IMG/VR virus record: IMGVR_UViG_3300040959_000809
Direction: 5' to 3' (one strand)
Length of the DNA: 64,000 nt
DNA from: a virus
Positions 1,654 to 36,980 of the stretch are shown piece after piece (the stretch's first letter is position 1; every line of letters begins with the position of its first letter). The notes beneath the pieces are model-generated. The model saw only the letters and a list, made by a program, of their open reading frames with translations. It did no database searches and was not told where the DNA came from. Both the position numbers and the translations under genes were made by a program.

Positions 1654-3012
1654 TTAGACACCAAGCAGTTCCTTATATTGAGTAATAGATAAGGATCCCA
1701 TCTTTTTGTTGTGATAACCTGAAATCATTGCCAAGTTCTCGTATGTGGTTTTACCACCGTCTGTATGAGCAATAATGTGACCACCCTCAGCACTTTCGAG
1801 TATAAGTGGTTTGCCGTCAACAGCACATTTGAAACCTTGTTCAGCCAATTTCGCCTCGCGCCATTCCAATGGGAAAGAACGAAGTTTATCCTTGACTGTA
1901 ATAATTGACTCGAGATTAATATCCTCAAGCAACAATTCAATAGGATAGATCACGTGAGCACGAGAATCAAATTCTCCAAGTGAGTCGTTAAATTGCTTAC
2001 CGATGGTTTTGGTAGAGTCAAAAGGCGACAACGCTTGTAGTCGTTTTGGCTGTTGGTCATATTTGATCTTGAATGGTGCATATGCCTTATAGACAACATC
2101 AAAGAATTCATCGTAATCAGAAATTTTGAATGAGCCATATGTCTCTTCCATATACAACCATAGGCGATAGAAAAGAGTAAATTCCTTCTGAGGCATATTT
2201 TGGCTGTTGAACCGCTTTTTACGAATATCAGCCATTTTAAGAACAAAGTCAAGGTTGTTGTGTACCTTTTCGGAAATCTTATCCATCTTGTCCTGAGTGA
2301 TGTCTGCTTCGTACATATCCTCAAGATCTTTATCGGTAGAGGTATTCAACCCACCCCCATCATAATAACGGAAGAAAAGACGAGCGACCATTTCGTCGAT
2401 ACGTAAGCCTTTATTATCGAAAAGAACCTTAGTGAAACTTTTCTTGGCTTCTCCATCCTTCTGAGTATAGTCAAATAGGGGGTGGATTGAATTGGATACA
2501 CCAGGGACCATACGAACCGTCTCACGAATTGCATTAGCAACAGGTGTCGAGCCATAAGAGTTCAGCATCTCCTGGTGATTAACTTGTGTTGTTTCGTTTA
2601 AGGAACGGAAGATATAGCCAACCTGCCACCCCTCAAGGTTTTCGTAAATACAAAATGTCAAGTCGGTGTCTAGGAATGCATCCCGTTCAGCCGAATCAAA
2701 GTCACGAAAATATTTCCCAGTCTTGAAATCAGGGAAACGATTTTCAAAGAAAGCCTTGATATACCGCTTTCGGTGACCACCGTCAATACTTTCGAATTTA
2801 AAATCACCTTCTGGTGTTTCATGAATTGTGATCTGACCTACATCAATGCCCATAAGCATAGAGTTTAGGATACCCTGTGCCTTACTTGGCTTTGACCGAC
2901 CAACCATAACTGGATCTCGGTCCAAACGCTGTCCTACTGGTTGTGTATCAATGTCGCCAAACATCAACAAAAAGTCACGGACGGACATTGTTTCTTTACG
3001 AAATTTAAACAT
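1654..3012 (-). CDS. DUF262 (ParB/Srx-like) plus C-terminal HNH protein, GmrSD/SspE-like nuclease architecture
   Basis: IDGGHRKRYI matches the DGQQR-type DUF262 motif, followed by IFRSLNET. C-terminal CAVDGKPL...GGHIIAHTDGGKTTYENLAMISGYHN is an HNH motif. Confidence 0.7.
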   Translation of the reverse strand: MFKFRKETMSVRDFLLMFGDIDTQPVGQRLDRDPVMVGRSKPSKAQGILNSMLMGIDVGQITIHETPEGDFKFESIDGGHRKRYIKAFFENRFPDFKTGKYFRDFDSAERDAFLDTDLTFCIYENLEGWQVGYIFRSLNETTQVNHQEMLNSYGSTPVANAIRETVRMVPGVSNSIHPLFDYTQKDGEAKKSFTKVLFDNKGLRIDEMVARLFFRYYDGGGLNTSTDKDLEDMYEADITQDKMDKISEKVHNNLDFVLKMADIRKKRFNSQNMPQKEFTLFYRLWLYMEETYGSFKISDYDEFFDVVYKAYAPFKIKYDQQPKRLQALSPFDSTKTIGKQFNDSLGEFDSRAHVIYPIELLLEDINLESIITVKDKLRSFPLEWREAKLAEQGFKCAVDGKPLILESAEGGHIIAHTDGGKTTYENLAMISGYHNKKMGSLSITQYKELLGV

Positions 3013-3067
3013 AATATAGTTTCCTTTTTCACCTTATAGAATATACTATAACACGAATAAAAACAAA

Positions 3068-3073
3068 TGTCAA
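3068..3073 (-). promoter_or_regulatory. sigma70-type -35 box of an early promoter (GGTTGACATT family)
   Basis: aatgtcaacc on the + strand, with an AT-rich UP element and a -10-like box pointing at ORF 3012. Confidence 0.6.
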
Positions 3074-3103
3074 CCATTTTTTTACTTTTTTTTTACTTTT
3101 TTA

Positions 3104-3307
3104 TTAAAAGTGGTTGGTAATCATATCCAAACGATCCTGAGCAGCTGCCATTGCATCCAATTCCTTTTGGATGGTTTCAATGATATCGGAGTGCTCACCG
3201 ATACCGACCACCTTTTGCATATAGACTTCAATATTTGTTTTATGCAGTTCAATTTCTGCCTCGGCATGTAGCCGAATAGCTTTTAGCATACGTTCTCTCA
3301 ATTCCAT
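3104..3307 (-). CDS. conserved small marine myovirus protein
   Basis: 67 aa with RBS; NIEVYMQKVVGIGEHSDIIETIQKELD motif. Confidence 0.6.
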   Translation of the reverse strand: MELRERMLKAIRLHAEAEIELHKTNIEVYMQKVVGIGEHSDIIETIQKELDAMAAAQDRLDMITNHF

Positions 3308-3317
3308 AATCCTTTCC

Positions 3318-3581
3318 TTAGAGGTCGATTAGATCCGACCACTGTTTCAATTTTTGTCTTTTAGCGGCTTTATGTTCTGCCACTTCCTTAAGATCAATAA
3401 GACCATATTGATCCAATAGGTCGATCATACACATCAGATCGCCAACTTCCACTTCAAGTTTGTGGATATTTTCGGCGGTGTCAGAACCAAACCGAATAAT
3501 TTTTGCAGCCTCTACTTGTAGTTCTGCACATTCCTCCATGGTAATAGTTAATGCCTCTTGCTTAATCTTGTCCACTATCAT
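3318..3581 (-). CDS. MazG-like nucleotide pyrophosphohydrolase
   Basis: TMEECAELQVEAAK...EVEVGDL fits the EExxE/ExxD pattern; likely start is ATG 3581. Confidence 0.6.
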   Translation of the reverse strand: MIVDKIKQEALTITMEECAELQVEAAKIIRFGSDTAENIHKLEVEVGDLMCMIDLLDQYGLIDLKEVAEHKAAKRQKLKQWSDLIDL

Positions 3582-17316: not shown

Positions 17317-17715
17317 ATGAACCAAGTATATGTATATAGTCACAAATACAAAAGAGAAACACTCGTTGAGGACGTAACTTACTTCTGCATCAAGGAACTT
17401 TTACCTCGGTTCAGTACATTAGATATAACAATAGAGCTAAGTAGTGACATGAGATCGGATCAATTTGGTGCGGTTGTTGCCTTGGATCGCCGAGAGTTCG
17501 AGATGGAACTCTCCGATAAGCTATCAGATGATGATCTGATCTCGACCATATGCCACGAAATGGTCCATGTCAAGCAATACGTTCGGAACGAAATACCCTT
17601 GGTTGGCGGTGTAAACTATAGAACATATAAAGAGTACCAAAATCAACCTCACGAGATCGAGGCCTTTGCATTAGAGAAAATATTGGCGAAAAAATTTAAA
17701 ATAAATGCAAAATAA
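17317..17715 (+). CDS. HExxH zincin-like putative metallopeptidase
   Basis: TICHEMVHVKQY...QPHEIEA. Confidence 0.7.
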   Translation: MNQVYVYSHKYKRETLVEDVTYFCIKELLPRFSTLDITIELSSDMRSDQFGAVVALDRREFEMELSDKLSDDDLISTICHEMVHVKQYVRNEIPLVGGVNYRTYKEYQNQPHEIEAFALEKILAKKFKINAK

Positions 17716-17718
17716 TGG

Positions 17719-17747
17719 TTGACATATAAGGCTATATATGATAGTAT
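17719..17747 (+). promoter_or_regulatory. early promoter
   Basis: GGTTGACA-17 bp-TAGTAT with an A-rich UP element. Confidence 0.65.
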
Positions 17748-17873
17748 GGTTATATAAGGTGAAAAAAAGGAACTTATGATGATTAAATCGACTTTGACTT
17801 TTATGATGACTGAAACGCTTTCAGTAGTGTTTAACCTAAGCTTTATTGCTGCAATTATTTGGGTACTAGTGTA

Positions 17874-24810: not shown

Positions 24811-25004
24811 TCTGATCTCTCCTTTAAAATATCTTTCATTACATTTGATGCTGTGTTAGTAAAGCATCTTGGTGCAACACTGTGAATAATAAGTGCTGGC
24901 ACCAAGAGCTGTAATTTAATGGCCGCTTTTAAGGCATGCCCCATGTGTTGTAATCCAGTTTCGCCAACTTCATCTAAGTGAGCTTTACATTGTTTACTTA
25001 ACAT
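24807..25004 (-). CDS. hypothetical protein
   Basis: 65 aa, coupled; HLDEVGETGLQHMGHA. Confidence 0.55.
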   Translation of the reverse strand: MLSKQCKAHLDEVGETGLQHMGHALKAAIKLQLLVPALIIHSVAPRCFTNTASNVMKDILKERSE

Positions 25005-25305
25005 TTTTCTTTTTGCTTTCTAACTTTTGTATCCGTGTCTCCAAATCATCAATCTTTTTGGTGACTTTTGGATATCGTTTACGCCATGCCTCTGGATCAT
25101 CCTGAAGCCATTCCCATCCAAAGCGGTCCACCAGGTGGTCCAATAGGCCATCAAATTTACCCATCAAATATAGAGCGGCTTTTGTATTTCGGAACCATGC
25201 TAAAAAGGCGGCACCTACAATGGATCCACCAATGGCAGTATAGATCCACAGCGTATCTCCAAACATCCTTGTGAGCATTTCCATCATGTTATATCCTTTG
25301 TACAC
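24994..25305 (-). CDS. single-pass membrane protein
   Basis: TM segment WIYTAIGGSIVGAAFLAWF and a C-terminal coiled coil. Confidence 0.6.
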   Translation of the reverse strand: MYKGYNMMEMLTRMFGDTLWIYTAIGGSIVGAAFLAWFRNTKAALYLMGKFDGLLDHLVDRFGWEWLQDDPEAWRKRYPKVTKKIDDLETRIQKLESKKKNVK

Positions 25306-25994
25306 CTAGTGTAATTATTCATTCCGTGATCAGCTGCACCATCCAAGAAACCGGATCTCCAACCCCTCCATCTATCCTTAAGTAATTGCCAACCAGTCAT
25401 TTTGCGAACATTTCCATAAAAGTTAATGTATTGTAATGAACCGTGATGCTTATAGCCCATAATGAACAATGGCACCTTGGTGACAATATCATTATTATTA
25501 ACATACCTAAGGTGAGTCGTAGAAATATTTTTTACAAATTTACGAGTACCAACTCTTGGTGAGCCGAAGGTGGTTAATTGTTCTACCTTACGTTCCTCTT
25601 CAAAGCGAGATGTAGCAATAGTAGCCATCGCAGCACCTAATGAGTGCCCAGTGATGTACATTCTCTTTGTTTTGTGATTATTATGGTGTTTTACTATATC
25701 AGCCCAAAGTTTATCACATTCATTTCTGAAACCTGAATGTACCAAACCGTGAGTCATAGCACCTCGTGGAATAGCATTTAAATCTGCTAATACATCACTT
25801 AGTTCTGAAGGTTCTGTACCTCGGAATGCAAGGACATATTCCTCCTTGTTCCATACAGCATGGCATTGAGCACCATCATTTTCAAAGAATTTATGACCCG
25901 TGTAACCCAAGGCCTTCATTTTTGGTTTTGCCTTTGCACTATCCAAATATGCAAGTTCAGCTAATTGTGCCATTTTATGACAAACGTTTGACAT
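25284..25994 (-). CDS. class 3 lipase (alpha/beta hydrolase)
   Basis: LAFRGT, VHSGF, ITGHSLGAA (GxSxG), TFGSPRVG, NNNDIVTKVP and H. Confidence 0.9.
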   Translation of the reverse strand: MSNVCHKMAQLAELAYLDSAKAKPKMKALGYTGHKFFENDGAQCHAVWNKEEYVLAFRGTEPSELSDVLADLNAIPRGAMTHGLVHSGFRNECDKLWADIVKHHNNHKTKRMYITGHSLGAAMATIATSRFEEERKVEQLTTFGSPRVGTRKFVKNISTTHLRYVNNNDIVTKVPLFIMGYKHHGSLQYINFYGNVRKMTGWQLLKDRWRGWRSGFLDGAADHGMNNYTRCTKDIT

Positions 25995-26009
25995 TTAGTC
26001 CTCCTAGTA

Positions 26010-26231
26010 TCACCCACCGGGAACAAATCCTTTGGGCTTATAAAATATTTTTTGGTTGTGTATTCGGCCGAGAAGTTCTTGAATCTCGTGCATTTCATAC
26101 CTCAATGTTGCAGATGTTTCACCGCTAGCAATAGCCATACCTCTTCGGCCAGCCTTTGCTCTTAATGCCTGTTCAATTAGTTCAATATCTCTTACACCTA
26201 ATGTAAAGTTTTTATTTGGTTTTGTAGCCAT
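26010..26231 (-). CDS. hypothetical protein
   Basis: 73 aa with GGAGG RBS. Confidence 0.6.
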   Translation of the reverse strand: MATKPNKNFTLGVRDIELIEQALRAKAGRRGMAIASGETSATLRYEMHEIQELLGRIHNQKIFYKPKGFVPGG

Positions 26232-26243
26232 TATTTAGATCCA

Positions 26244-26555
26244 TTATAATTTGTTTTTATTTAATTTTTGTTTGAATAACTCACTATCACTCATCTTCTT
26301 ATTAGCTTTGATTGGTAATTTGGATTGGGAGTTTTGCCGTCGAAGGTCACTACTGGGCTGAACTTGTTCGGATATATCTTCTTTATGAGAGGGTTGTGGC
26401 GGAAGATACGCCTTTCTGAGCTCAGCAATTCTTTTTGCTGTTTCATTATGCTTTTGAGTCCAATATCTCTCAATCATATTCTCCTTGAACCTACGGTCTA
26501 TCTCTCCTTCAATATAATCCTTTAATAGCCAATCAAACAGAAATTGCTTAATCAT
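26244..26555 (-). CDS. hypothetical protein
   Basis: Likely start is ATG 26555 (MIKQFLFDW), overlapping the stop of the Cys-rich peptide. Confidence 0.55.
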   Translation of the reverse strand: MIKQFLFDWLLKDYIEGEIDRRFKENMIERYWTQKHNETAKRIAELRKAYLPPQPSHKEDISEQVQPSSDLRRQNSQSKLPIKANKKMSDSELFKQKLNKNKL

Positions 26556-26667
26556 GTTTTTTACATTTACATTTAGTACACACATCATTAATGCAGTTCT
26601 TGCAGTCAGGTGCATAGCAATGGCATCGGTGCCCGCAGCTCTCACACGTTCTTTCAGGTCCTTGCAT
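26548..26667 (-). CDS. 39 aa Cys/His-rich, metallothionein-like peptide
   Basis: Manual ORF MQGPERTCESCGHRCHCYAPDCKNCINDVCTKCKCKKHD (9 Cys, 3 His); AGGAG RBS. Confidence 0.7.
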   Translation of the reverse strand: MQGPERTCESCGHRCHCYAPDCKNCINDVCTKCKCKKHD

Positions 26668-26683
26668 TATTATCTCCTATTTA

Positions 26684-27229
26684 TTAGTTTCCTGATAATG
26701 GATTATCCAATGCTTCTTGTAATGTTTTTCTTAAATCTGTATCCAGTTTATTCATTTTATTATCAATTCGTTCTTCTGTTTCACGCATTGTGTCTCTGGA
26801 ATCCTTTTCTGATTCTCTTGTCAGATCAGATAATTGTCTTAGTCTGGTATCAATGTCATCCTGAATATTCTTTACACGAGAACTTGTAGAATCAGTAATT
26901 CTTTCTACTCTAATAATATCATCCTTTAAGCTGTTTTTAATATCCCGTGTATAATCAATTGCATCATCAAGCTTTCGTTCGATGGAAAGATTCCTGGCTT
27001 CTACAGCCTCCAAGTCCAATACCTCTAGCTTTTCACTCATTTCTTGAAACGCTTTATATGATTCAAATGCTCCATATAGTGTTCCTAGCAAAGCACTCAC
27101 TACAGCGAAAAGTGCACCAATAGTAGATGGTGTTAGTGTAATTCCAAATAACTTCATTTTGGTGTTCTTGAGGTTCTCAACCTCATTATCGAAAGCCTCT
27201 AAACCTTCTCCCAGATCTTTATCAGCCAT
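26684..27229 (-). CDS. membrane-anchored coiled-coil protein
   Basis: TM segment IGALFAVVSALLGTLYGAF followed by a long heptad-rich region. Confidence 0.7.
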   Translation of the reverse strand: MADKDLGEGLEAFDNEVENLKNTKMKLFGITLTPSTIGALFAVVSALLGTLYGAFESYKAFQEMSEKLEVLDLEAVEARNLSIERKLDDAIDYTRDIKNSLKDDIIRVERITDSTSSRVKNIQDDIDTRLRQLSDLTRESEKDSRDTMRETEERIDNKMNKLDTDLRKTLQEALDNPLSGN

Positions 27230-27238
27230 AAGTTACCT

Positions 27239-27661
27239 CTAGTTTTCAAATTGTAATTGTCTTAATTGTTGTATTTCCTGTTCTAATTTCATTACCTCCA
27301 GCCTTTTCTTTTTTAATTCAAGCTGATACAATTCATTACAATTAATTCTAGCTTTAGGTTTAGCACCAAGCGGAATAATTATTCTAGCATATACCCCAAC
27401 ATCCTTAGGGCTACTACCAAGACTGTCATTATAATCATTAAAGCCATTATTATTTTGGTTCCTAGATATAATACCTGTGACTCCAAATTCAGTATATGTA
27501 GCTGAACCAATAGCATTCTGACAGTCCAAATCCCCTGCTCTGAATTTATCATATTGATGATTTCCAGGCGCAGTTGGGATTTGAAGGTTTAGTGAACTTG
27601 AATCTGCGTTTGCAATAGATACCATGCATAACGTAGCAGTCACTACCAAAAATCTCAACAT
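27239..27661 (-). CDS. secreted protein with a C-terminal coiled coil
   Basis: Sec signal peptide ending SIANA; two Cys. Confidence 0.65.
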   Translation of the reverse strand: MLRFLVVTATLCMVSIANADSSSLNLQIPTAPGNHQYDKFRAGDLDCQNAIGSATYTEFGVTGIISRNQNNNGFNDYNDSLGSSPKDVGVYARIIIPLGAKPKARINCNELYQLELKKKRLEVMKLEQEIQQLRQLQFEN

Positions 27662-27671
27662 CTCATTTTTC

Positions 27672-28058
27672 TCACTTTACTTTAGAACATATTTTTGAGG
27701 AGACAACGGTAGGCCCTCCCCCCTTTAGTAATTTAGATCTTGTACAAACATACCCAACACTATTGACATCTCTATCTCTAATGAATACTGTAAATGATTT
27801 TCTGTCCAAGTAGTTTACTTTAAAGATTCGTTCAGTTGAAGCAAAAGGAATTTGCTCCCATTCTTTGTCAAATACTGATATTTCATAATAGAGTACATCT
27901 GATCTTCTATTAAATAGTTTAAGATTAAGTTGTTTAACCTCCGGCATATATGAATTTCTAAGTTCAGGATACGCCGGAGTCATTTCATGCGACATTGCCT
28001 TGTTAGCTAGAAAAAGCATCATAAGACAAATCAGCACCGATAAAATCAAATATCTCAT
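27672..28058 (-). CDS. secreted Ig-like protein resembling a PapD-N chaperone domain
   Basis: Signal peptide ending KAMS-H; TPAYP...LNLKLFN...YYEISVFD...W...RIFKV...FTVFI...YVC. Confidence 0.5.
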   Translation of the reverse strand: MRYLILSVLICLMMLFLANKAMSHEMTPAYPELRNSYMPEVKQLNLKLFNRRSDVLYYEISVFDKEWEQIPFASTERIFKVNYLDRKSFTVFIRDRDVNSVGYVCTRSKLLKGGGPTVVSSKICSKVK

Positions 28059-28073
28059 AATAAAAGCCTATTT

Positions 28074-28592
28074 TTAGTTAGCGATGCATTCTGCTTCAAC
28101 GATAGATGTATATGTACCTGCAGGAAATGCAGTATTAAACCCATACGTAGCTGTCGAGGATACTGAAAACCAGGTAGTTCCTGCCACAGATAAATCATAT
28201 TCTGTTGCGTTATCAAATTCTACCTTTGCCGCTTCATACCCAGCCATATTAACATCTGATGTATTGGAAACAGTTGTGGATCCAGTCCAAGTAACCGTGT
28301 CAACTAGGGTCGGCGCTGTCGAGAAGGATAATGGATATCTAATCCTTGCCGTATAGTAATCTGCCTGAGCCACGTCGAAACGAATGACGGGGCTAATACC
28401 ACCGTCAGCACTCTCGGTACTCAACTCATTGGGTGTAGGGTTACCATATACACCTGCAGTGTCGGTAAAGATTGAACACTTAGCTTGAACATTTCCTATA
28501 ATAGGTATGTCCTCTGCCGCTGCCACAGAAACATAACCAATTGCAGAAGCTAGGCTTATTCCTAATCCTGTAATTATTGGTTTGATATTCAT
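28074..28592 (-). CDS. secreted protein resembling a Csu/spore-coat-U chaperone-usher pilin
   Basis: Signal peptide ending AAA-E; IIGNVQAKCSI...YG and C-terminal FPAGTYTSIVEAEC. Confidence 0.5.
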   Translation of the reverse strand: MNIKPIITGLGISLASAIGYVSVAAAEDIPIIGNVQAKCSIFTDTAGVYGNPTPNELSTESADGGISPVIRFDVAQADYYTARIRYPLSFSTAPTLVDTVTWTGSTTVSNTSDVNMAGYEAAKVEFDNATEYDLSVAGTTWFSVSSTATYGFNTAFPAGTYTSIVEAECIAN

Positions 28593-28612
28593 AAATTTAC
28601 TCCGTTTTAGTT

Positions 28613-29539
28613 TTAGTTTTTATATTGTGATCTGACCATATCATTATGGACAGCATCTGAAGCCAAATTACTAAGAGCTCTTCTGTTGTCAGGAATATTA
28701 GAGTCTGATAATTTAACTGTTTCTGGATAGGCACCCCCAGGAATCTGTGCCTGATAATAAGTATTAAACTCTGGTACCGCTGATAGTCGTAACATTTTTT
28801 CCTGTTCTTTTGCAGTAGTAACAAAACCTTCTATGTCCATGCCAGCATTTAATTGTCTGATAGGATCATCTTCAGTGGCCTCTTCCTGCTGTGTCTTTCT
28901 TTGTTCTTTTTCAGTCACATCTTCTTCCTCATCACCCATTTGGTCCCTATTCATTACCAATTGGACGTATTCATCATAGTAAGGGTCACCTGGTTGTGGA
29001 GGTGCTTCAAAGAGTCCTTGATCTTGCATCCATGCAAATAAAGCATCCTCATACCCAGGACATTCTGGATTTGAAATTACTACATAACACTCATCATACT
29101 TATAGCTGTATATGACAGTAGGGTTGTTAATAGTACCTTCACCTTCCGTTTGAATGGATCCTGTACCAAATGCTGTTGCTGGTGTATTTTCAATCGAAAT
29201 GAGCCTACTAATTGTGTTACCAGGTAAACCAGACCAATCGTCGGTACTTCTGAAAACATAGCCTGGCCCTTGTGCATTTTCATTCTGCACATGAACTAAT
29301 AAATTATCACCCGGTTCTTTATCTACTGTATAGCGATAAAAAATATTACCGATAGTCAAGCCCGTCTGTGCTGGTAGTATATTAGCCATTACCCAGCTAA
29401 GTCCATTTGCGGCCGCATTATTTGTGGTACTGTAGACTTCAGTCCCCGTCCCTGTTACCCCTATTTCTTCAGAGTAACAAAAGGAGGAGGAGAGTGCCCA
29501 AAATACCACCGCCGATAAGAGTGCTCTTTGTCTCTTCAT
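28613..29539 (-). CDS. secreted protein with a beta-rich N-domain and an acidic C-domain
   Basis: Signal-like N-terminus; DECYVVISNPECPGY; acidic, low-complexity tail. Confidence 0.65.
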   Translation of the reverse strand: MKRQRALLSAVVFWALSSSFCYSEEIGVTGTGTEVYSTTNNAAANGLSWVMANILPAQTGLTIGNIFYRYTVDKEPGDNLLVHVQNENAQGPGYVFRSTDDWSGLPGNTISRLISIENTPATAFGTGSIQTEGEGTINNPTVIYSYKYDECYVVISNPECPGYEDALFAWMQDQGLFEAPPQPGDPYYDEYVQLVMNRDQMGDEEEDVTEKEQRKTQQEEATEDDPIRQLNAGMDIEGFVTTAKEQEKMLRLSAVPEFNTYYQAQIPGGAYPETVKLSDSNIPDNRRALSNLASDAVHNDMVRSQYKN

Positions 29540-30038
29540 TTACTACCTTATTTTTGTTTCCAGGCATTTGATCCTGGTTTTCTTCCCAAGCAGCTTTAGC
29601 TTCTACACCAATTTTACCATCAAAGGGACATGGTGTGCCGGCATTCATCATTGCATTAAAAATACGCTCATCCTGACACATTACAGAAACAGCTGCCACC
29701 TTCATGCCCATATCATATAAAGTCTTAGCATTTTTTAACTTTTCACAATTCATATCACGAACAGTTTTACCTGCTGAAATTCCCAATATTTGAGTCTGCA
29801 CTGCCCCAGCAATACCTACGGTACACAGATCAGAATTTGCCGTATTAATCTGTGGAGATATAGCTGAAGGAGGAGCGGTTTTTACTGTTGTGGTGGAATC
29901 ACTTGTCGAGTTAATTGTACTCTGTGTAGTTGATTCTGTTTTAATAGTATCACTTGCTGTGCTGTCTGCTTCCTGACCTAATGCAAAATTAGGCAAGCAT
30001 AACATCATTAACAAGAACATCATTTTAGATTTAGTCAT
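29469..30038 (-). CDS. secreted, C-terminally anchored Cys-containing protein
   Basis: Signal peptide ending FALG-Q, S/T-rich linker, 4-Cys core, and hydrophobic C-tail GGGILGTLLLLLLL. Confidence 0.7.
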   Translation of the reverse strand: MTKSKMMFLLMMLCLPNFALGQEADSTASDTIKTESTTQSTINSTSDSTTTVKTAPPSAISPQINTANSDLCTVGIAGAVQTQILGISAGKTVRDMNCEKLKNAKTLYDMGMKVAAVSVMCQDERIFNAMMNAGTPCPFDGKIGVEAKAAWEENQDQMPGNKNKVVNEETKSTLIGGGILGTLLLLLLL

Positions 30039-30076
30039 AGTATTAATCCCGTGTAATCATTATTTTATCACATGCT

Positions 30077-30084
30077 TATTTATA
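30077..30084 (-). promoter_or_regulatory. T4-type late promoter TATAAATA heading the secreted-protein operon
   Basis: tatttata on the + strand, 39 bp upstream of ATG 30038. Confidence 0.7.
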
Positions 30085-30134
30085 CATCCAGCCAGCCTAT
30101 TTCTGTTAAAACTTACTGGTAGCCTTAGTTCTCC

Positions 30135-30205
30135 GTGTCACAAATGTGACACTACAAGGTTGTCAAAACTTTGACATTGACAAATAAAGATTAATGTGTT
30201 AATAT
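30135..30205 (+). promoter_or_regulatory. sigma70 promoter preceded by two palindromic operator-like sites
   Basis: GTGTCAC-aaat-GTGACAC (30135-30152) and TGTCAA-aact-TTGACA (30161-30176), then TTGACA(30177)-17 bp-TAATAT. Confidence 0.6.
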
Positions 30206-30208
30206 ATA

Positions 30209-30270
30209 GAGTAGGCAGTGGGTAAAGCGCTGTCTATTTCAATGCGAGCGACGGGGTAAAGCCGTCAAGC
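30209..30270 (+). ncRNA. candidate cis-regulatory leader RNA: two hairpins with identical GGUAAAG loops
   Basis: Stem 30209-30220/30228-30240 and stem 30250-30254/30262-30266, each capped by G-GGTAAAG-C; ends just before the AGGAG RBS. Confidence 0.55.
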
Positions 30271-30284
30271 AAAAGGAGAACTAA

Positions 30285-31250
30285 ATGGAACTACTCACAA
30301 TGTGGAGTCTTATCGGATTCCTGCTTGCTGCGTATGCAGTTATCGCCAACGATTCAGTACAAACGCTCGGTACTTGGATGGCATCAAACAATGAGCGATT
30401 TAATTATAAAGTATTATGGGCAGCGGCATCCGCTGTTTTATTGTATACACTATGGTATGGTTGGTATATGAATGGTGGCGATATATCTTATGGCCGTTTG
30501 AATAAAATTCCATTCCAAGATGTACAATGGTATCATGCCGCGGCACCTGCCATTCTTGTTTTACTAACACGAATGGGTGTTCCGGTTTCAACATCATTTT
30601 TAGTCTTATCAGTATTTGCTTCAACCTTTGTGTTGGAAAAAATGCTTATGAAATCAATTATGGGCTATGGTGTTGCTGCAGCATTTGCTTATGCTGTGTG
30701 GTTTGCTATCCATAAGTATTTTGGTAAATGGTACGACGAAACTCAACCAGTATCTGAAAGCAATAAAAAGTTTTGGCGTATTGCCCAATGGGTAGCAACA
30801 GGTGGATTATGGTTTACTTGGTTGTCGCATGATATTGCTAACATTGCAGTATTCCTACCACGTGCCATTCCTGTAGACCTAATGGTGTTTATCAGCATTG
30901 TGTTTGTTGCCGGCTTGTTCTTTATGTTTAGAGAAAAAGGTGGTAAGATCCAGAAGATTGTTTTGGAAAAACATAATACTCGATATGTACGGTCAGCGAC
31001 ACTAATTGACTTGTTCTATTGGTTATGTCTGTACTTTTTCAAAGAACTGAATGATATTCCTATGAGTACCACGTGGGTATTTGTTGGGTTACTTGCAGGT
31101 CGTGAATTGGCTATGGCTACATATTTTGGTAAAAAGAAAACAAAATCAGTATTTCCCTTGGTCGCTAAAGACTTTGGTAAAATGATGGTAGGACTTGGTG
31201 CCTCGGTTGCGTTAGTATTACTGATTCATTATGTTATAAACCCGTCATAA
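30285..31250 (+). CDS. multi-pass membrane transporter, PiT/PHO4 (phosphate/sulfate permease)-related
   Basis: About 9-10 TM segments. IANDSVQTLGT and SHDIANIA resemble the two repeated GAND/HGANDVANA PiT signatures; also PVSTS and PMSTT. Confidence 0.6.
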   Translation: MELLTMWSLIGFLLAAYAVIANDSVQTLGTWMASNNERFNYKVLWAAASAVLLYTLWYGWYMNGGDISYGRLNKIPFQDVQWYHAAAPAILVLLTRMGVPVSTSFLVLSVFASTFVLEKMLMKSIMGYGVAAAFAYAVWFAIHKYFGKWYDETQPVSESNKKFWRIAQWVATGGLWFTWLSHDIANIAVFLPRAIPVDLMVFISIVFVAGLFFMFREKGGKIQKIVLEKHNTRYVRSATLIDLFYWLCLYFFKELNDIPMSTTWVFVGLLAGRELAMATYFGKKKTKSVFPLVAKDFGKMMVGLGASVALVLLIHYVINPS

Positions 31251-32138: not shown

Positions 32139-32366
32139 ATGCAAGTTGAAATTGAAGATATTGTTTTGGATGAGATTGTAGCTCAAAGGCTTAAAAGTGA
32201 TGCCGAGATTATTGATGGTGATCTCACCCAGCTACAAGAAAAAATGAAAATGGTAGGGCTCACAGATGATGAGGATGTAGAATATATGTGGTTGGTTAAT
32301 ACCCTGGATGCCTTGAATACAGCATTAAAGTACTACACTGGTGTTGGTTGGCCACAGAGAGAGTAA
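32139..32366 (+). CDS. hypothetical acidic protein
   Basis: 75 aa, GGAGG RBS. Confidence 0.55.
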   Translation: MQVEIEDIVLDEIVAQRLKSDAEIIDGDLTQLQEKMKMVGLTDDEDVEYMWLVNTLDALNTALKYYTGVGWPQRE

Positions 32367-32423
32367 AAAAGTTAAAATAAATGTAAAAAAATGGTTGACA
32401 TTCGTTACTACCTGTGTTATTAT
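32365..32423 (+). promoter_or_regulatory. early promoter cassette, copy 1 of a 38 bp direct repeat
   Basis: AAAAAAGTTAAAATAAATGTAAAAAAATGGTTGACATT, then TATTAT at 17 bp. Confidence 0.75.
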
Positions 32424-32450
32424 GTATATATGATAACAAAAGGTGATGAT

Positions 32451-32762
32451 ATGACTAAGTTTGAAAAAGAATTGTTCCAGTGGGACGGAATGTACTTAAT
32501 GTACAAAGGCGACTACAAAGGTTCAGTATTGATGAACGAAGCTCATCCGGACTGCCACCCTTCATGGATAGGCAAAGTCAAACCTGCATTTATTGCTCGG
32601 TTTAAATATGGACAAAAACCTTGGAAATCTTGGGTTAAATGTCTGGTAGAAAACTATACTGTTGAGGGCTATCTGGCTGAGGTTGAAGCAACCAATCCGT
32701 TGGAAGCAGTTCAAAAAGTTGGTTATGCTGGCCGTGGTAGATACCTTCGTAAAAAAAGTTAA
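32451..32762 (+). CDS. hypothetical early protein
   Basis: Likely start is ATG 32451, after AAGGTG. Confidence 0.6.
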   Translation: MTKFEKELFQWDGMYLMYKGDYKGSVLMNEAHPDCHPSWIGKVKPAFIARFKYGQKPWKSWVKCLVENYTVEGYLAEVEATNPLEAVQKVGYAGRGRYLRKKS

Positions 32763-32811
32763 AATAAATGTAAAAAAATGGTTGACATTTGCTTAGCAGG
32801 TGTTATATTAA
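32752..32811 (+). promoter_or_regulatory. early promoter cassette, copy 2 of the 38 bp direct repeat
   Basis: 32752-32789 is identical to 32365-32402. Confidence 0.75.
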
Positions 32812-32839
32812 TAGTATAAGGTAAATAAAGGAAAACCAA

Positions 32840-35684: not shown

Positions 35685-35811
35685 TGTGCAACCTCCTTTT
35701 TATTATGTTTTTTATGCACTTGCACAAATTTTATTTATAAAAAAATTAAAATAATGGTTGACATTCGCTCTGGATGGTATATATTAGTACTATAAACAGA
35801 AAGGATACACA

Positions 35812-35985: not shown

Positions 35986-36075
35986 GAAAAAAATGAAAAT
36001 AAATGCAAATAAATGGTTGACATTTGCTATAGATGGTGTATATTAATACTATAAGGTGAAAACAAAGGAACTAAC

Positions 36076-36451: not shown

Positions 36452-36616
36452 ATGACTGAACTTATGACTGATATTGATGTTATTGAATCTGCATTAATCG
36501 CCTTTAACGAAGGTGCCAGCGATGAGAAATATGCGGCACTTTACTCTTTGGAAAAACTTCTGTTGGAAAAGAAGGACATGGTTGCAAAATTTGAAGCAAC
36601 TGCATGTGACTTATAG
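36452..36616 (+). CDS. 54 aa hypothetical protein
   Basis: Manual ORF MTELMTDIDVIESALIAF..., GGAG RBS. Confidence 0.5.
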   Translation: MTELMTDIDVIESALIAFNEGASDEKYAALYSLEKLLLEKKDMVAKFEATACDL

Positions 36617-36670
36617 GTCACATAATGATGTTATATATTGACTTTTGATGTATAACATCATAAATACTAT

Positions 36671-36980
36671 GTAATCGTTGATACGATTCAACGCATGGAC
36701 TGGACCGGGGGGCAATACCCCGCAGCTCCACCATAAACACACTGAGAACGTGCAAGCGTCAGTAAGTCTATAAAGGGTCGCAACCTTGAGCAACAGTGTG
36801 TTTTTGATGGGGCTGAACTAGGATCGACAGGTGTGTAGAGATGAGAGTAGATTACCGTGGTGGCTTACGACATTCGGCCAAACAAACTAAATGCAAACGA
36901 TAATGTTGCACCTTCAGGTTACGCACTAGCGGCATAAGCTGACGGGCTGGTCACTTGCCTCGGAACAGAAAAGTGACACT
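36671..36980 (+). ncRNA. ssrA: circularly permuted two-piece tmRNA (alphaproteobacterial type); outer ends approximate
   Basis: Acceptor piece ends CAGCTCCACCA at 36733. Coding piece starts GGGGCTGAACTAGGATCGAC at 36809, giving a G3.U70 pair. Tag ORF 36893-36937 reads ANDNVAPSGYALAA*. Confidence 0.92.

What the first reader, a model, noticed from the sequence alone, without database searches (positions are those of the whole stretch)
30209..30270. Twin-hairpin leader RNA with identical GGUAAAG loops upstream of a transporter: riboswitch-like candidate
Seen: the predicted transcript (-10 box at 30200-30205) begins with an 11-12 bp stem containing several G-U pairs, then a 5 bp GC stem. Both are capped by the same 9-mer GGGTAAAGC (30220-30228 and 30254-30262), and the second ends just before the AGGAG RBS of the PiT-like gene. 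Established: guanidine-II riboswitches use two hairpins with identical loops that kiss upon ligand binding, but their loop is ACGR. Inference: a possibly undescribed ligand- or protein-sensing element controlling an ion or phosphate transporter in a phage. I do not recognise it as a known Rfam family.
Basis: partly seen in the sequence, partly recalled or inferred. Interest (0 to 1): 0.75.

Follow-up and report, generated by a model that had tools for sequence, protein, structure and literature searches.

The report
Conserved leader hairpin on phage phosphate-uptake genes
A marine T4-like phage carries a short, strongly conserved RNA hairpin just ahead of the ribosome-binding site of its phosphate-uptake genes; it matches no described RNA family, and the "twin identical loops" occur in only about a fifth of the variants.

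Summary

The conserved unit is hairpin 2 plus its flanks, 31 nt at 30241-30271.
- It has a 3-bp outer helix (UGY/RCA), an invariant GAGN/AA internal loop, a 5-bp stem and a loop with a GUAAA core.
- In 75 distinct phage leaders the stem is always paired, and 4 of 5 pairs show compensatory changes.
- Unpaired bases are 94% identical, against 60% at third codon positions and 33% just upstream.
- It always lies 11-14 nt before a start codon. That gene is the PiT-fold transporter, a pstS inserted behind the same leader, or a small outer-membrane barrel.
- No true match in 151 Pelagibacteraceae genomes or in Rfam.

Hairpin 1 is a variable 5' stem-loop. It carries a GUAAA loop in 28 of 137 leaders, where it forms its own covarying hairpin-plus-U-run family.

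Best reading (about 0.4): a translational operator recognised by a trans-acting factor through the GNRA-like loop and internal loop. Rivals are a small-ligand riboswitch (0.2), a constitutive stabiliser or enhancer (0.25), and boxB-like antitermination (0.1). It is not guanidine-II. The scan had separately noted the transporter, and a Pho-box array on other DNA.

The parts
30177..30205 (+). Sigma-70-type promoter: TTGACA, 17-nt spacer, TG-TAATAT
   Evidence: 10 of 12 matches, TG before the -10. It belongs to a family of TTGACA early-type promoters repeated through the window. Function is inferred; no transcription start was mapped.
30209..30239 (+). Hairpin 1: 12-bp stem with 4 G-U pairs and loop GGUAAAG (30221-30227). 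It sits at the 5' end of the predicted transcript and is followed by a weak U-run (UAUUUC).
   Evidence: Fold. It belongs to a covarying family of GUAAA-loop hairpins, most followed by a U-run: 19 sequences, 100% paired, all 8 pairs with double changes. This family is found in only 28 of 137 leaders.
30241..30271 (+). Core conserved element (model R1). Outer helix 30243-30245 with 30269-30271; internal loop GAGC (30246-30249) opposite AA (30267-30268); inner stem 30250-30254 with 30262-30266; loop GGUAAAG (30255-30261).
   Evidence: CM match of 52.7 bits, E 1e-11, the only copy in the window. Covariation; conservation.
30274..30278 (+). Shine-Dalgarno AGGAG, 3 nt after the outer helix and 6 nt before the ATG
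   Evidence: The element-to-start distance is 11-14 nt in every fully paired, non-coding instance.
30285..31250 (+). 321-aa divergent PiT-fold membrane transporter (P0001)
   Evidence: AF2 model with alignment, pLDDT 92.9. Foldseek top hit 6L85, a Na-dependent phosphate transporter, probability 1.0 and TM 0.60. 20 of 39 relatives weakly match PF01384. About 57% identical homologues occur in Pelagibacter genomes.

Best explanation
Window 30241-30271 is a phage-specific structured 5'-UTR element placed directly against the ribosome-binding site of the genes in a phosphate-uptake cassette. Those genes are a PiT-fold permease, in some phages pstS, and in others an outer-membrane barrel.

Shown: the RNA folds as a 5-bp stem capped by a GNRA-like GUAAA loop. 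The stem sits on an invariant GAGN/AA internal loop and a 3-bp outer helix.

Inferred: a trans-acting factor, most likely a protein of the phage or the infected host, recognises the loop and the internal loop. Because the element ends 3-8 nt from the SD, inside the 30S footprint, binding would set the rate of translation initiation, most simply by steric repression. Known examples of that design are the T4 gp43 operator, the thrS operator and IRE/IRP.

Hairpin 1 is a separate, interchangeable 5'-terminal stem-loop that probably protects the mRNA. In the window's lineage it is a hairpin-plus-U-run type that carries the same GUAAA loop, so the same factor could also act there.
For: 1. Structure: across 75 distinct leaders the inner helix is 100% paired and 4 of 5 pairs show compensatory changes. 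There are 64 double-change cells against 11 in shuffles (0 of 500 reach it), and slid controls pair only 23-47%. RNAalifold finds the same helix on its own. In the outer helix, the pair next to the internal loop is U-G 48, U-A 19, C-G 8 and never mismatched.
2. Sense-strand RNA: the G-U pairs would be C-A mismatches on the other strand.
3. Sequence-specific recognition: unpaired bases are 94% identical, against 90% at codon positions 1+2, 60% at position 3 and 33% in the 40 nt upstream. GAG, AA and the two last A's of the loop are invariant in 110 leaders.
4. Loop variants (GGACAAG, GGAAAAA) keep a G-N-N-A-A core, pointing to a fold read by shape.
5. Coupling to translation starts: every fully paired, non-coding instance lies 11-14 nt before a start codon, whatever the gene. 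Downstream genes: PiT-like 55, pstS 5, a ~180-aa secreted protein 3, a Phage_OMP-like barrel 1 and a 55-aa ORF 1. Promoter type upstream varies.
6. One copy per cassette gene and nowhere else: one in the window and one in each of 5 large phage contigs.
7. A hairpin-1-type hairpin with a UGUAAAG loop replaces the element directly before the SD at the pstS-PiT junction.
8. GUAAA-loop hairpins do not occur at other terminator-like sites in the window, and no other well-paired one was found in 5 phage contigs.
Against: - No binding factor is identified, and no gene was found to co-occur with the element (bS21 was tested and does not).
- A membrane permease cannot plausibly autoregulate through RNA, so the factor would have to be encoded elsewhere.
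- A single hairpin with an internal loop can also be a small-ligand aptamer.
- G-N-A-A-A loops may simply be stable caps: two terminator-like hairpins elsewhere in related contigs carry UGCAAAA or UGUAAAA loops.
- The direction of regulation is unknown, and no expression data with mapped 5' ends exist.
Confidence: 0.4

Rival explanations
1. Small-ligand or ion riboswitch. The GAGN/AA internal loop, with or without the GUAAA loop, binds a phosphate-status signal or ion such as Pi-Mg, PPi, ppGpp or Na+, and changes translation of phosphate-uptake genes independently of the host PhoBR system.
For: The conservation pattern fits an aptamer: invariant unpaired bases and covarying stems. The element is tied to functionally coherent transport genes, namely a PiT-fold permease, pstS and an outer-membrane barrel. 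It persists whatever promoter type lies upstream, including the window's apparently constitutive TTGACA promoter. Small single-hairpin aptamers are known from the literature (own knowledge: xanthine/NMT1, HMP-PP, guanidine-II).
Against: No alternative pairing sequesters the SD or forms a terminator after the element. The element has only 8 bp and no junction or pseudoknot. Loop variants showed no compensating change in nearby sequence by eye. It is absent from the host homologues and from about 60 of 70 other phage pstS genes, which carry different leaders. A general metabolite sensor would usually be more widespread. No phosphate riboswitch is known.
Confidence: 0.2
2. Constitutive structural leader. 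The two hairpins protect the 5' end of the mRNA from decay and keep the SD single-stranded, acting as an insulator or translation-enhancer cassette. The GUAAA loop is simply an unusually stable GNRA-like cap. There is no regulator.
For: Almost every one of 137 leaders has some hairpin right after the -10 box, whatever its sequence. The SD is unpaired in all folds. The whole leader is portable: the identical leader drives pstS or the permease, like the mobile promoter/stem-loop cassettes described in T4-type phages (own knowledge). Similar G-N-A-A-A loops cap two other terminator-like hairpins in related contigs.
Against: A stabiliser does not need an invariant GAGN/AA internal loop or bases more conserved than codon positions 1+2. 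Hairpin 1, which already sits at the 5' end, varies freely while hairpin 2 does not. Other terminator-like hairpins in the window do not use this loop.
Confidence: 0.25
3. boxB-like transcription antitermination or attenuation. In the twin-loop lineages, hairpin 1 plus its U-run is an early intrinsic terminator. A factor bound to the GUAAA loops of the nascent RNA decides read-through.
For: Hairpin-1-type hairpins have 8-10 bp stems followed by a U-run that is invariant over three positions; they covary fully and keep G-U-A-A-A. The loop variants GAAAA and GACAA equal the lambda and P22 boxB pentaloops (own knowledge).
Against: About 80% of leaders have no GUAAA loop on hairpin 1, and most of those lack a U-run by eye. 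The window's own U-run is broken (UAUUUC). Hairpin 2 is not followed by a terminator. No boxA-like sequence is visible in the leader, and N-like proteins are not known in T4-like phages. The element's fixed distance to start codons points to translation.
Confidence: 0.1

Closest known systems
Guanidine-II riboswitch (mini-ykkC, RF01068)
   Same: Two small hairpins with identical loops just upstream of a transporter's SD. This resemblance holds in the window and in about 20% of the leader variants.
   Different: The loops have a GUAAA core, not ACGR. Only the second hairpin is conserved across relatives. The second hairpin has an invariant internal loop and an outer helix that mini-ykkC lacks. 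There is no Rfam match, and the gene context is phosphate uptake rather than guanidine export.
Lambda/P22 nut boxB hairpin bound by N protein
   Same: A 5-bp stem capped by a GNRA-like G-N-N-A-A pentaloop. The natural variants GAAAA and GACAA are the same as the boxB loops. It lies close behind a phage promoter.
   Different: No boxA is present and no N-like gene is known in T4-like phages. It is followed by an SD and start codon rather than by terminators. An extra closing mismatch (G-G, G-U or G-A) and the GAGN/AA internal loop are present.
Protein-bound translational operators next to the SD or cap (T4 gp43 operator, E. coli thrS operator, IRE/IRP)
   Same: Short stem, conserved apical loop, a conserved bulge or internal loop about 5 bp below the loop, and a position where a bound protein would block initiation.
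   Different: There is no sequence similarity. The regulated products are envelope transport proteins that cannot be their own repressors, and the binder is unknown.
Pho-box (PhoB) control of phage pstS, as described for cyanophages
   Same: The same kind of genes. A subset of the leaders lies behind 11-bp-period TGTCA-type repeats (seen by eye).
   Different: That control is a DNA site for transcription. The element here is an RNA structure downstream of the promoter, and it persists behind sigma-70-like and late-like promoters too.

Membership tests
Guanidine-II riboswitch (mini-ykkC) | Two hairpins, each with an ACGR tetraloop on a C-G closing pair | tested here: not met
   The loops are 7 nt, GGUAAAG. 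No ACGR loop occurs in any of the 75 aligned leaders.
Guanidine-II riboswitch (mini-ykkC) | Both hairpins conserved among relatives | tested here: not met
   Hairpin 1 shares the loop in 28 of 137 unique leaders and otherwise belongs to unrelated hairpin types.
Guanidine-II riboswitch (mini-ykkC) | Match to the Rfam covariance model | tested here: not met
   No match at E up to 10 on 30040-30400, nor at E up to 1 in 14 related loci.
Any Rfam 15 family | Covariance-model match to the leader | tested here: not met
   The only hit touching the leader is a 14-bit match (E 0.23) to the unpaired tail of DUF805b, far below its gathering score of 35.6.
Riboswitch (generic) | Conserved aptamer-like structure with covariation and conserved unpaired bases | tested here: met
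Riboswitch (generic) | Expression platform: alternative pairing that hides the SD or forms a terminator | tested here: not met
   The SD is unpaired in the MFE and consensus folds, there is no U-run after hairpin 2, and no complement to the SD is visible in the leader.
Riboswitch (generic) | Direct ligand binding | not testable with these tools
   Needs in-line probing or ITC.
nut site (boxA + boxB) | GNRA-like pentaloop on a short stem | tested here: inconclusive
   The loop core is GUAAA, with variants GACAA and GAAAA. Whether it adopts the fold cannot be shown here.
nut site (boxA + boxB) | boxA (CGCUCUUUA-like) upstream of boxB | tested here: not met
   No such sequence in 30206-30250 or in the aligned leaders.
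PiT / PHO4 phosphate transporter family (the downstream gene) | PiT fold | tested here: met
   The Foldseek top hits are both chains of 6L85: probability 1.0, E 1e-4, TM 0.60. The next hit has E 0.2.
PiT / PHO4 phosphate transporter family (the downstream gene) | Pfam PF01384 at the gathering score | tested here: not met
   The window protein scores 10.8 bits against a 33.7 cut-off. 20 of 39 relatives match weakly, best E 5e-7. It is a divergent, shorter (321 aa) relative, and its substrate is not shown.

The most novel reading that the evidence does not exclude
The 31-nt element is a self-contained sensor of cellular phosphorus status. It would bind phosphate, perhaps as a Mg complex, or a phosphate-starvation metabolite. 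That would let a phage tune a permease, pstS and an outer-membrane barrel at the level of translation without relying on the host PhoBR system. It would be the first phosphate-responsive riboswitch.
Probability: 0.1. Interest if true: 0.9.

Novelty: new variant of a known kind. Interest (0 to 1): 0.6.

Why it matters
Phage-encoded phosphate-uptake genes are a textbook case of viruses reprogramming ocean microbes, and their control has so far been discussed only as PhoB-dependent transcription.

This work shows a second, RNA-level layer specific to a very abundant group of SAR11-type myophages. The transporter family has more than 7,800 relatives at E <= 0.001 in public protein collections, and at least 430 stretches in viral contigs encode one.

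The element is a compact 31 nt, strongly covarying and attached to several genes. That makes it a tractable target for finding either a new RNA-binding regulator or a new ligand sensor. It also marks the boundaries of a mobile cassette into which pstS is inserted in some phage subpopulations.

Tried and rejected
- Rfam at gathering and permissive thresholds, on the window and on 14 related loci: nothing on the leader. The DUF805b tail match (14 bits) did not recur in relatives and is taken as chance.
- Single-sequence structure prediction of the transporter failed (pLDDT 44). The alignment-based model worked.
- The atlas fold library was not available.
- The window's own assembly is not held. 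The nearest genome, G001, is a 5.1-Mb MAG carrying phage-like contigs that end before the locus.
- Divergent single proteins as queries gave few viral loci.
- Host origin of the element: the upstream regions of 80 bacterial homologues show no such hairpin. The CM search of 5 plus 151 Pelagibacteraceae-type genomes gave only two weak hits (21-25 bits), which by my reading of the flanking sequence lie inside coding regions.
- Genome-wide regulon idea: the CM finds one copy per phage contig, and GUAAA-loop hairpins elsewhere are coincidental or rare.
- Link to phage ribosomal protein bS21: it is present in 1 of 5 contigs and absent from the complete one. Rejected.
- Loop-to-flank pseudoknot and loop-to-loop kissing: the loop variants showed no compensating change in nearby sequence by eye.
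- Leader peptide: the window has a 5-codon ATG...TAA frame at 30243-30260, but the ATG is not conserved.
- K-turn reading of the internal loop: the strand order of the G-A pairs and the bulge is the reverse of a K-turn (own reasoning).
- Metatranscriptome contigs from one marine study cover the leader and gene, and also the leader-pstS and pstS-permease junction variants. Being contigs, they cannot show a transcription start, strand or level, and no cover upstream of 30206 may only reflect sequence divergence.
- Literature searches found pelagimyophage pstS as a structural variant (PMC12379486) but nothing on this RNA.

Full report
**1. What is in the sequence**

Reading 29900-30500 confirms every item of the finding.
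- A sigma-70-type promoter has TTGACA at 30177-30182, a 17-nt spacer, and TG-TAATAT ending at 30205.
- Hairpin 1 pairs 30209-30220 with 30228-30239: 12 bp including four G-U pairs.
- Hairpin 2 is a 5-bp G+C-rich stem, 30250-30254 with 30262-30266.
- Both are capped by GGUAAAG. The 9-mer GGGTAAAGC occurs only at these two places in the 64 kb.
- AGGAG (30274-30278) and the ATG (30285) of a 321-aa ORF follow.
- The 84-nt leader folds into exactly these two hairpins (-25.3 kcal/mol, z = -3.5) and leaves the SD free.
- A start about 7 nt after the -10 box would fall inside the 5' arm of hairpin 1, so hairpin 1 sits at the very 5' end of the RNA.

**2. Context**

The window is the replication region of a T4-like myophage. 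It encodes a gp43-type DNA polymerase, SbcCD-like nuclease, topoisomerase II and helicases. It also holds many TTGACA early-type promoters, three tRNAs and a permuted alpha-type tmRNA.

The gene behind the leader has no Pfam or PHROG match on its own. Other evidence places it as follows.
- An alignment-based AlphaFold model is confident (pLDDT 92.9).
- Its only significant structural match is the Thermotoga Na-dependent phosphate transporter 6L85 (probability 1.0, TM 0.60).
- 20 of 39 relatives weakly match PF01384.
- Homologues about 57% identical are common in Pelagibacter genomes.

So the gene is a host-derived auxiliary gene of a SAR11-type myophage. At least 430 viral-contig stretches encode a relative, and more than 7,800 related proteins exist.

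**3. What is conserved**

Upstream regions were taken from 160 viral loci (inspected).

The 31 nt around hairpin 2 are nearly constant. Everything further upstream is replaced from lineage to lineage. The consensus reads:
- outer helix UGY with RCA;
- internal loop GAGN opposite AA;
- a 5-bp stem;
- a loop K-G-U-A-A-A-D.

On 75 distinct leaders (A2):
- The inner stem is paired in 100% of cells, and four of five pairs show compensatory changes (A-U/C-G, C-G/U-A/A-U/G-C, G-C/A-U, G-C/U-A).
- There are 64 double-change cells against 11 in shuffles (0 of 500 reach it).
- Slid controls pair only 23-47%.
- RNAalifold predicts the same helix independently.
- In the outer helix, the pair next to the internal loop is U-G, U-A or C-G and never C-A.
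- The G-U pairs put the structure on the sense RNA.

Across 110 unique leader-plus-gene records, mean pairwise identity is:

| Positions compared | Identity |
|---|---|
| Unpaired bases of the element | 94% |
| Codon positions 1+2 of the gene | 90% |
| Codon position 3 | 60% |
| The 40 nt upstream | 33% |

GAG, AA and the last two loop A's are invariant. The rare loop variants GGACAAG, GGAAAAA and UGUUAAAG keep a G-N-(N)-A-A core, which is the pattern of GNRA-like pentaloops.

**4. Where else it occurs**

A covariance model of the 31 nt (R1) gave these results.
- It finds one copy in the window (52.7 bits; the next hit is 13.9).
- It finds one copy in each of five large phage contigs.
- In two of these contigs the copy is not directly in front of the permease:
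  - in the complete 221-kb contig it precedes a PBP_like_2 phosphate-binding protein (pstS; E 2e-48);
  - in the 230-kb contig it precedes two small ORFs, with the permease next.
- In the pstS case the leader through the ATG is the one found in front of the permease in sister phages. pstS is therefore inserted exactly behind the leader, which agrees with pstS being a structural variant of pelagimyophage subpopulations (PMC12379486).

An exact-pattern scan of viral contigs returned 82 matches, of which 76 are followed by an ORF.
- 55 are followed by the permease and 5 by pstS.
- Among the rest, those with a fully paired stem in non-coding DNA precede:
  - a 180-aa secreted protein (3);
  - a 103-aa Phage_OMP-like beta-barrel (1; PF24653, E 3e-9);
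  - a 55-aa ORF (1).
- The start codon is always 11-14 nt downstream.
- Two contigs carry two copies, one before the secreted or barrel protein and one before the permease.

The element was not found in several places where it might be expected.
- Bacterial homologues of the permease lack it.
- 151 sampled Pelagibacteraceae genomes gave only two weak hits, inside coding regions by my reading.
- About 60 of 70 other phage pstS genes have different leaders.

**5. Promoters**

Upstream of the leaders, promoter types differ among 145 unique regions.

| Promoter type | Count of 145 | Expected in shuffles |
|---|---|---|
| TTGACA-N16-18-TAnnnT | 41 | 0.65 |
| ATAAATA-type late-like motif | 77 | 12.7 |
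| Strict 11-bp-period TGTCA-type pairs (Pho-box-like) | 15 | 0.4 |

Looser Pho-box-like arrays are visible by eye in more of them. The window has the TTGACA type. Whatever the element does, it is therefore independent of how the operon is transcribed.

**6. Hairpin 1**

Nearly all 137 unique leaders have some hairpin right after the -10 region, but it falls into unrelated types. The commonest loop is AWCGUYGA.

A GUAAA-type loop, and hence a twin, occurs in 28 of 137. Those 28 form a real family of their own.
- In 19 distinct sequences all eight stem pairs covary.
- The stem is 100% paired.
- G-U-A-A-A is invariant.
- A run of U follows.

The same hairpin type, with a UGUAAAG loop, a U-run and then the SD, forms the pstS-permease junction, where the 31-nt element is missing. 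GUAAA-loop hairpins are not used at the other terminator-like sites of the window, and no other well-paired one was seen in five phage contigs. Two terminator-like hairpins elsewhere in related contigs do carry UGCAAAA or UGUAAAA loops.

**7. Mechanism**

Shown:
- a covarying sense-strand RNA structure;
- invariant unpaired bases;
- a fixed position against start codons of envelope phosphate-uptake genes;
- phage specificity;
- independence from promoter type.

Inferred: the loop and internal loop are read by something. I rank the readings as follows.

| Reading | Probability | Main reason |
|---|---|---|
| Trans-acting factor acting on translation initiation | about 0.4 | Single short hairpin with apical-loop and internal-loop determinants inside the 30S footprint; no alternative pairing with the SD; a second hairpin type with the same loop can take its place before an SD |
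| Constitutive stabiliser or enhancer | 0.25 | Argued against by the invariant internal loop |
| Small-ligand riboswitch | 0.2 | Possible for a hairpin of this size, and attractive given the gene set; no expression platform and a narrow distribution |
| boxB-like antitermination at the U-run of hairpin 1 | 0.1 | Applies at most to the twin lineages |

**8. Comparison and novelty**

It is not a guanidine-II riboswitch: the loops, the conservation of both hairpins, the Rfam model and the gene context all fail. It resembles boxB only in the loop. In architecture it resembles protein-bound translational operators. It matches no Rfam 15 family, and I found no paper describing it. I class it as a new structured leader of a known general kind.

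Earlier notes of this scan had flagged the permease on this window and a Pho-box array before a PiT-like gene on other DNA. Neither concerned the RNA.

Noticed in passing
window 36607-36980 (+); also L076, L037, L017, L064, L057 at about 3000-3340: A permuted, alpha-type tmRNA gene is carried by the phage (104-112 bits). In several related phages it lies immediately downstream of the PiT-like gene; in the window it is about 5.4 kb further on.
   Followed up: partly
L253 1400-2600 (221-kb complete viral contig); L275, L299, L311, L321, L323: pstS (PBP_like_2) is inserted exactly between the conserved leader and the permease. It brings its own 3' hairpin (UGUAAAG loop, U-run) and a new SD for the permease. 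This matches the pstS structural variant reported for pelagimyophage subpopulations.
   Followed up: yes
L117-L151 (Pelagibacter genomes), about 20-70 nt upstream of the homologous gene: The host homologues have their own conserved upstream block in many strains (for example AAGTCATGAATCGATAGGAACCGAAAACAATAAT). It is unrelated to the phage element and could be a host promoter or leader signal.
   Followed up: no
many leaders, e.g. L192-L216, L230-L243 (hairpin just after the -10 box): A second recurrent hairpin type at the 5' end of the leader has the conserved 8-nt loop AWCGUYGA on a variable 6-7 bp stem. It is commoner than the GUAAA type.
   Followed up: partly
window 32365-32438, 32752-32825, 35728-35801, 35987-36060, 17689-17755: A repeated intergenic cassette holds an A-rich stretch, GGTTGACATT and a TATA-rich -10 box (early-type promoters). 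Copies also occur in two contigs of the MAG G001.
   Followed up: no
G001 contig C64 1-4171 against window 25000-29189: A 5.1-Mb, 98%-complete MAG holds contigs 95% identical to this phage. These are probably phage contigs binned with a bacterial genome.
   Followed up: no
L038 4161-4334 (-): A manA RNA match just below the gathering score (49.3 against 55.2 bits) lies next to a tRNA in a related phage contig.
   Followed up: no
L288 333-878, L283 7676-8218, L309 5924-6235: Small signal-peptide proteins (103-181 aa) sit behind their own copy of the element, directly upstream of the permease copy. One matches Phage_OMP (a cyanophage outer-membrane beta-barrel domain). They may be an outer-membrane part of the uptake cassette.
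   Followed up: partly
window 30243-30260 (+): A 5-codon frame (ATG CGA GCG ACG GGG TAA) overlaps the 5' half of hairpin 2. The ATG is not conserved in relatives, most of which read ATG TGA or have no ATG.
   Followed up: yes
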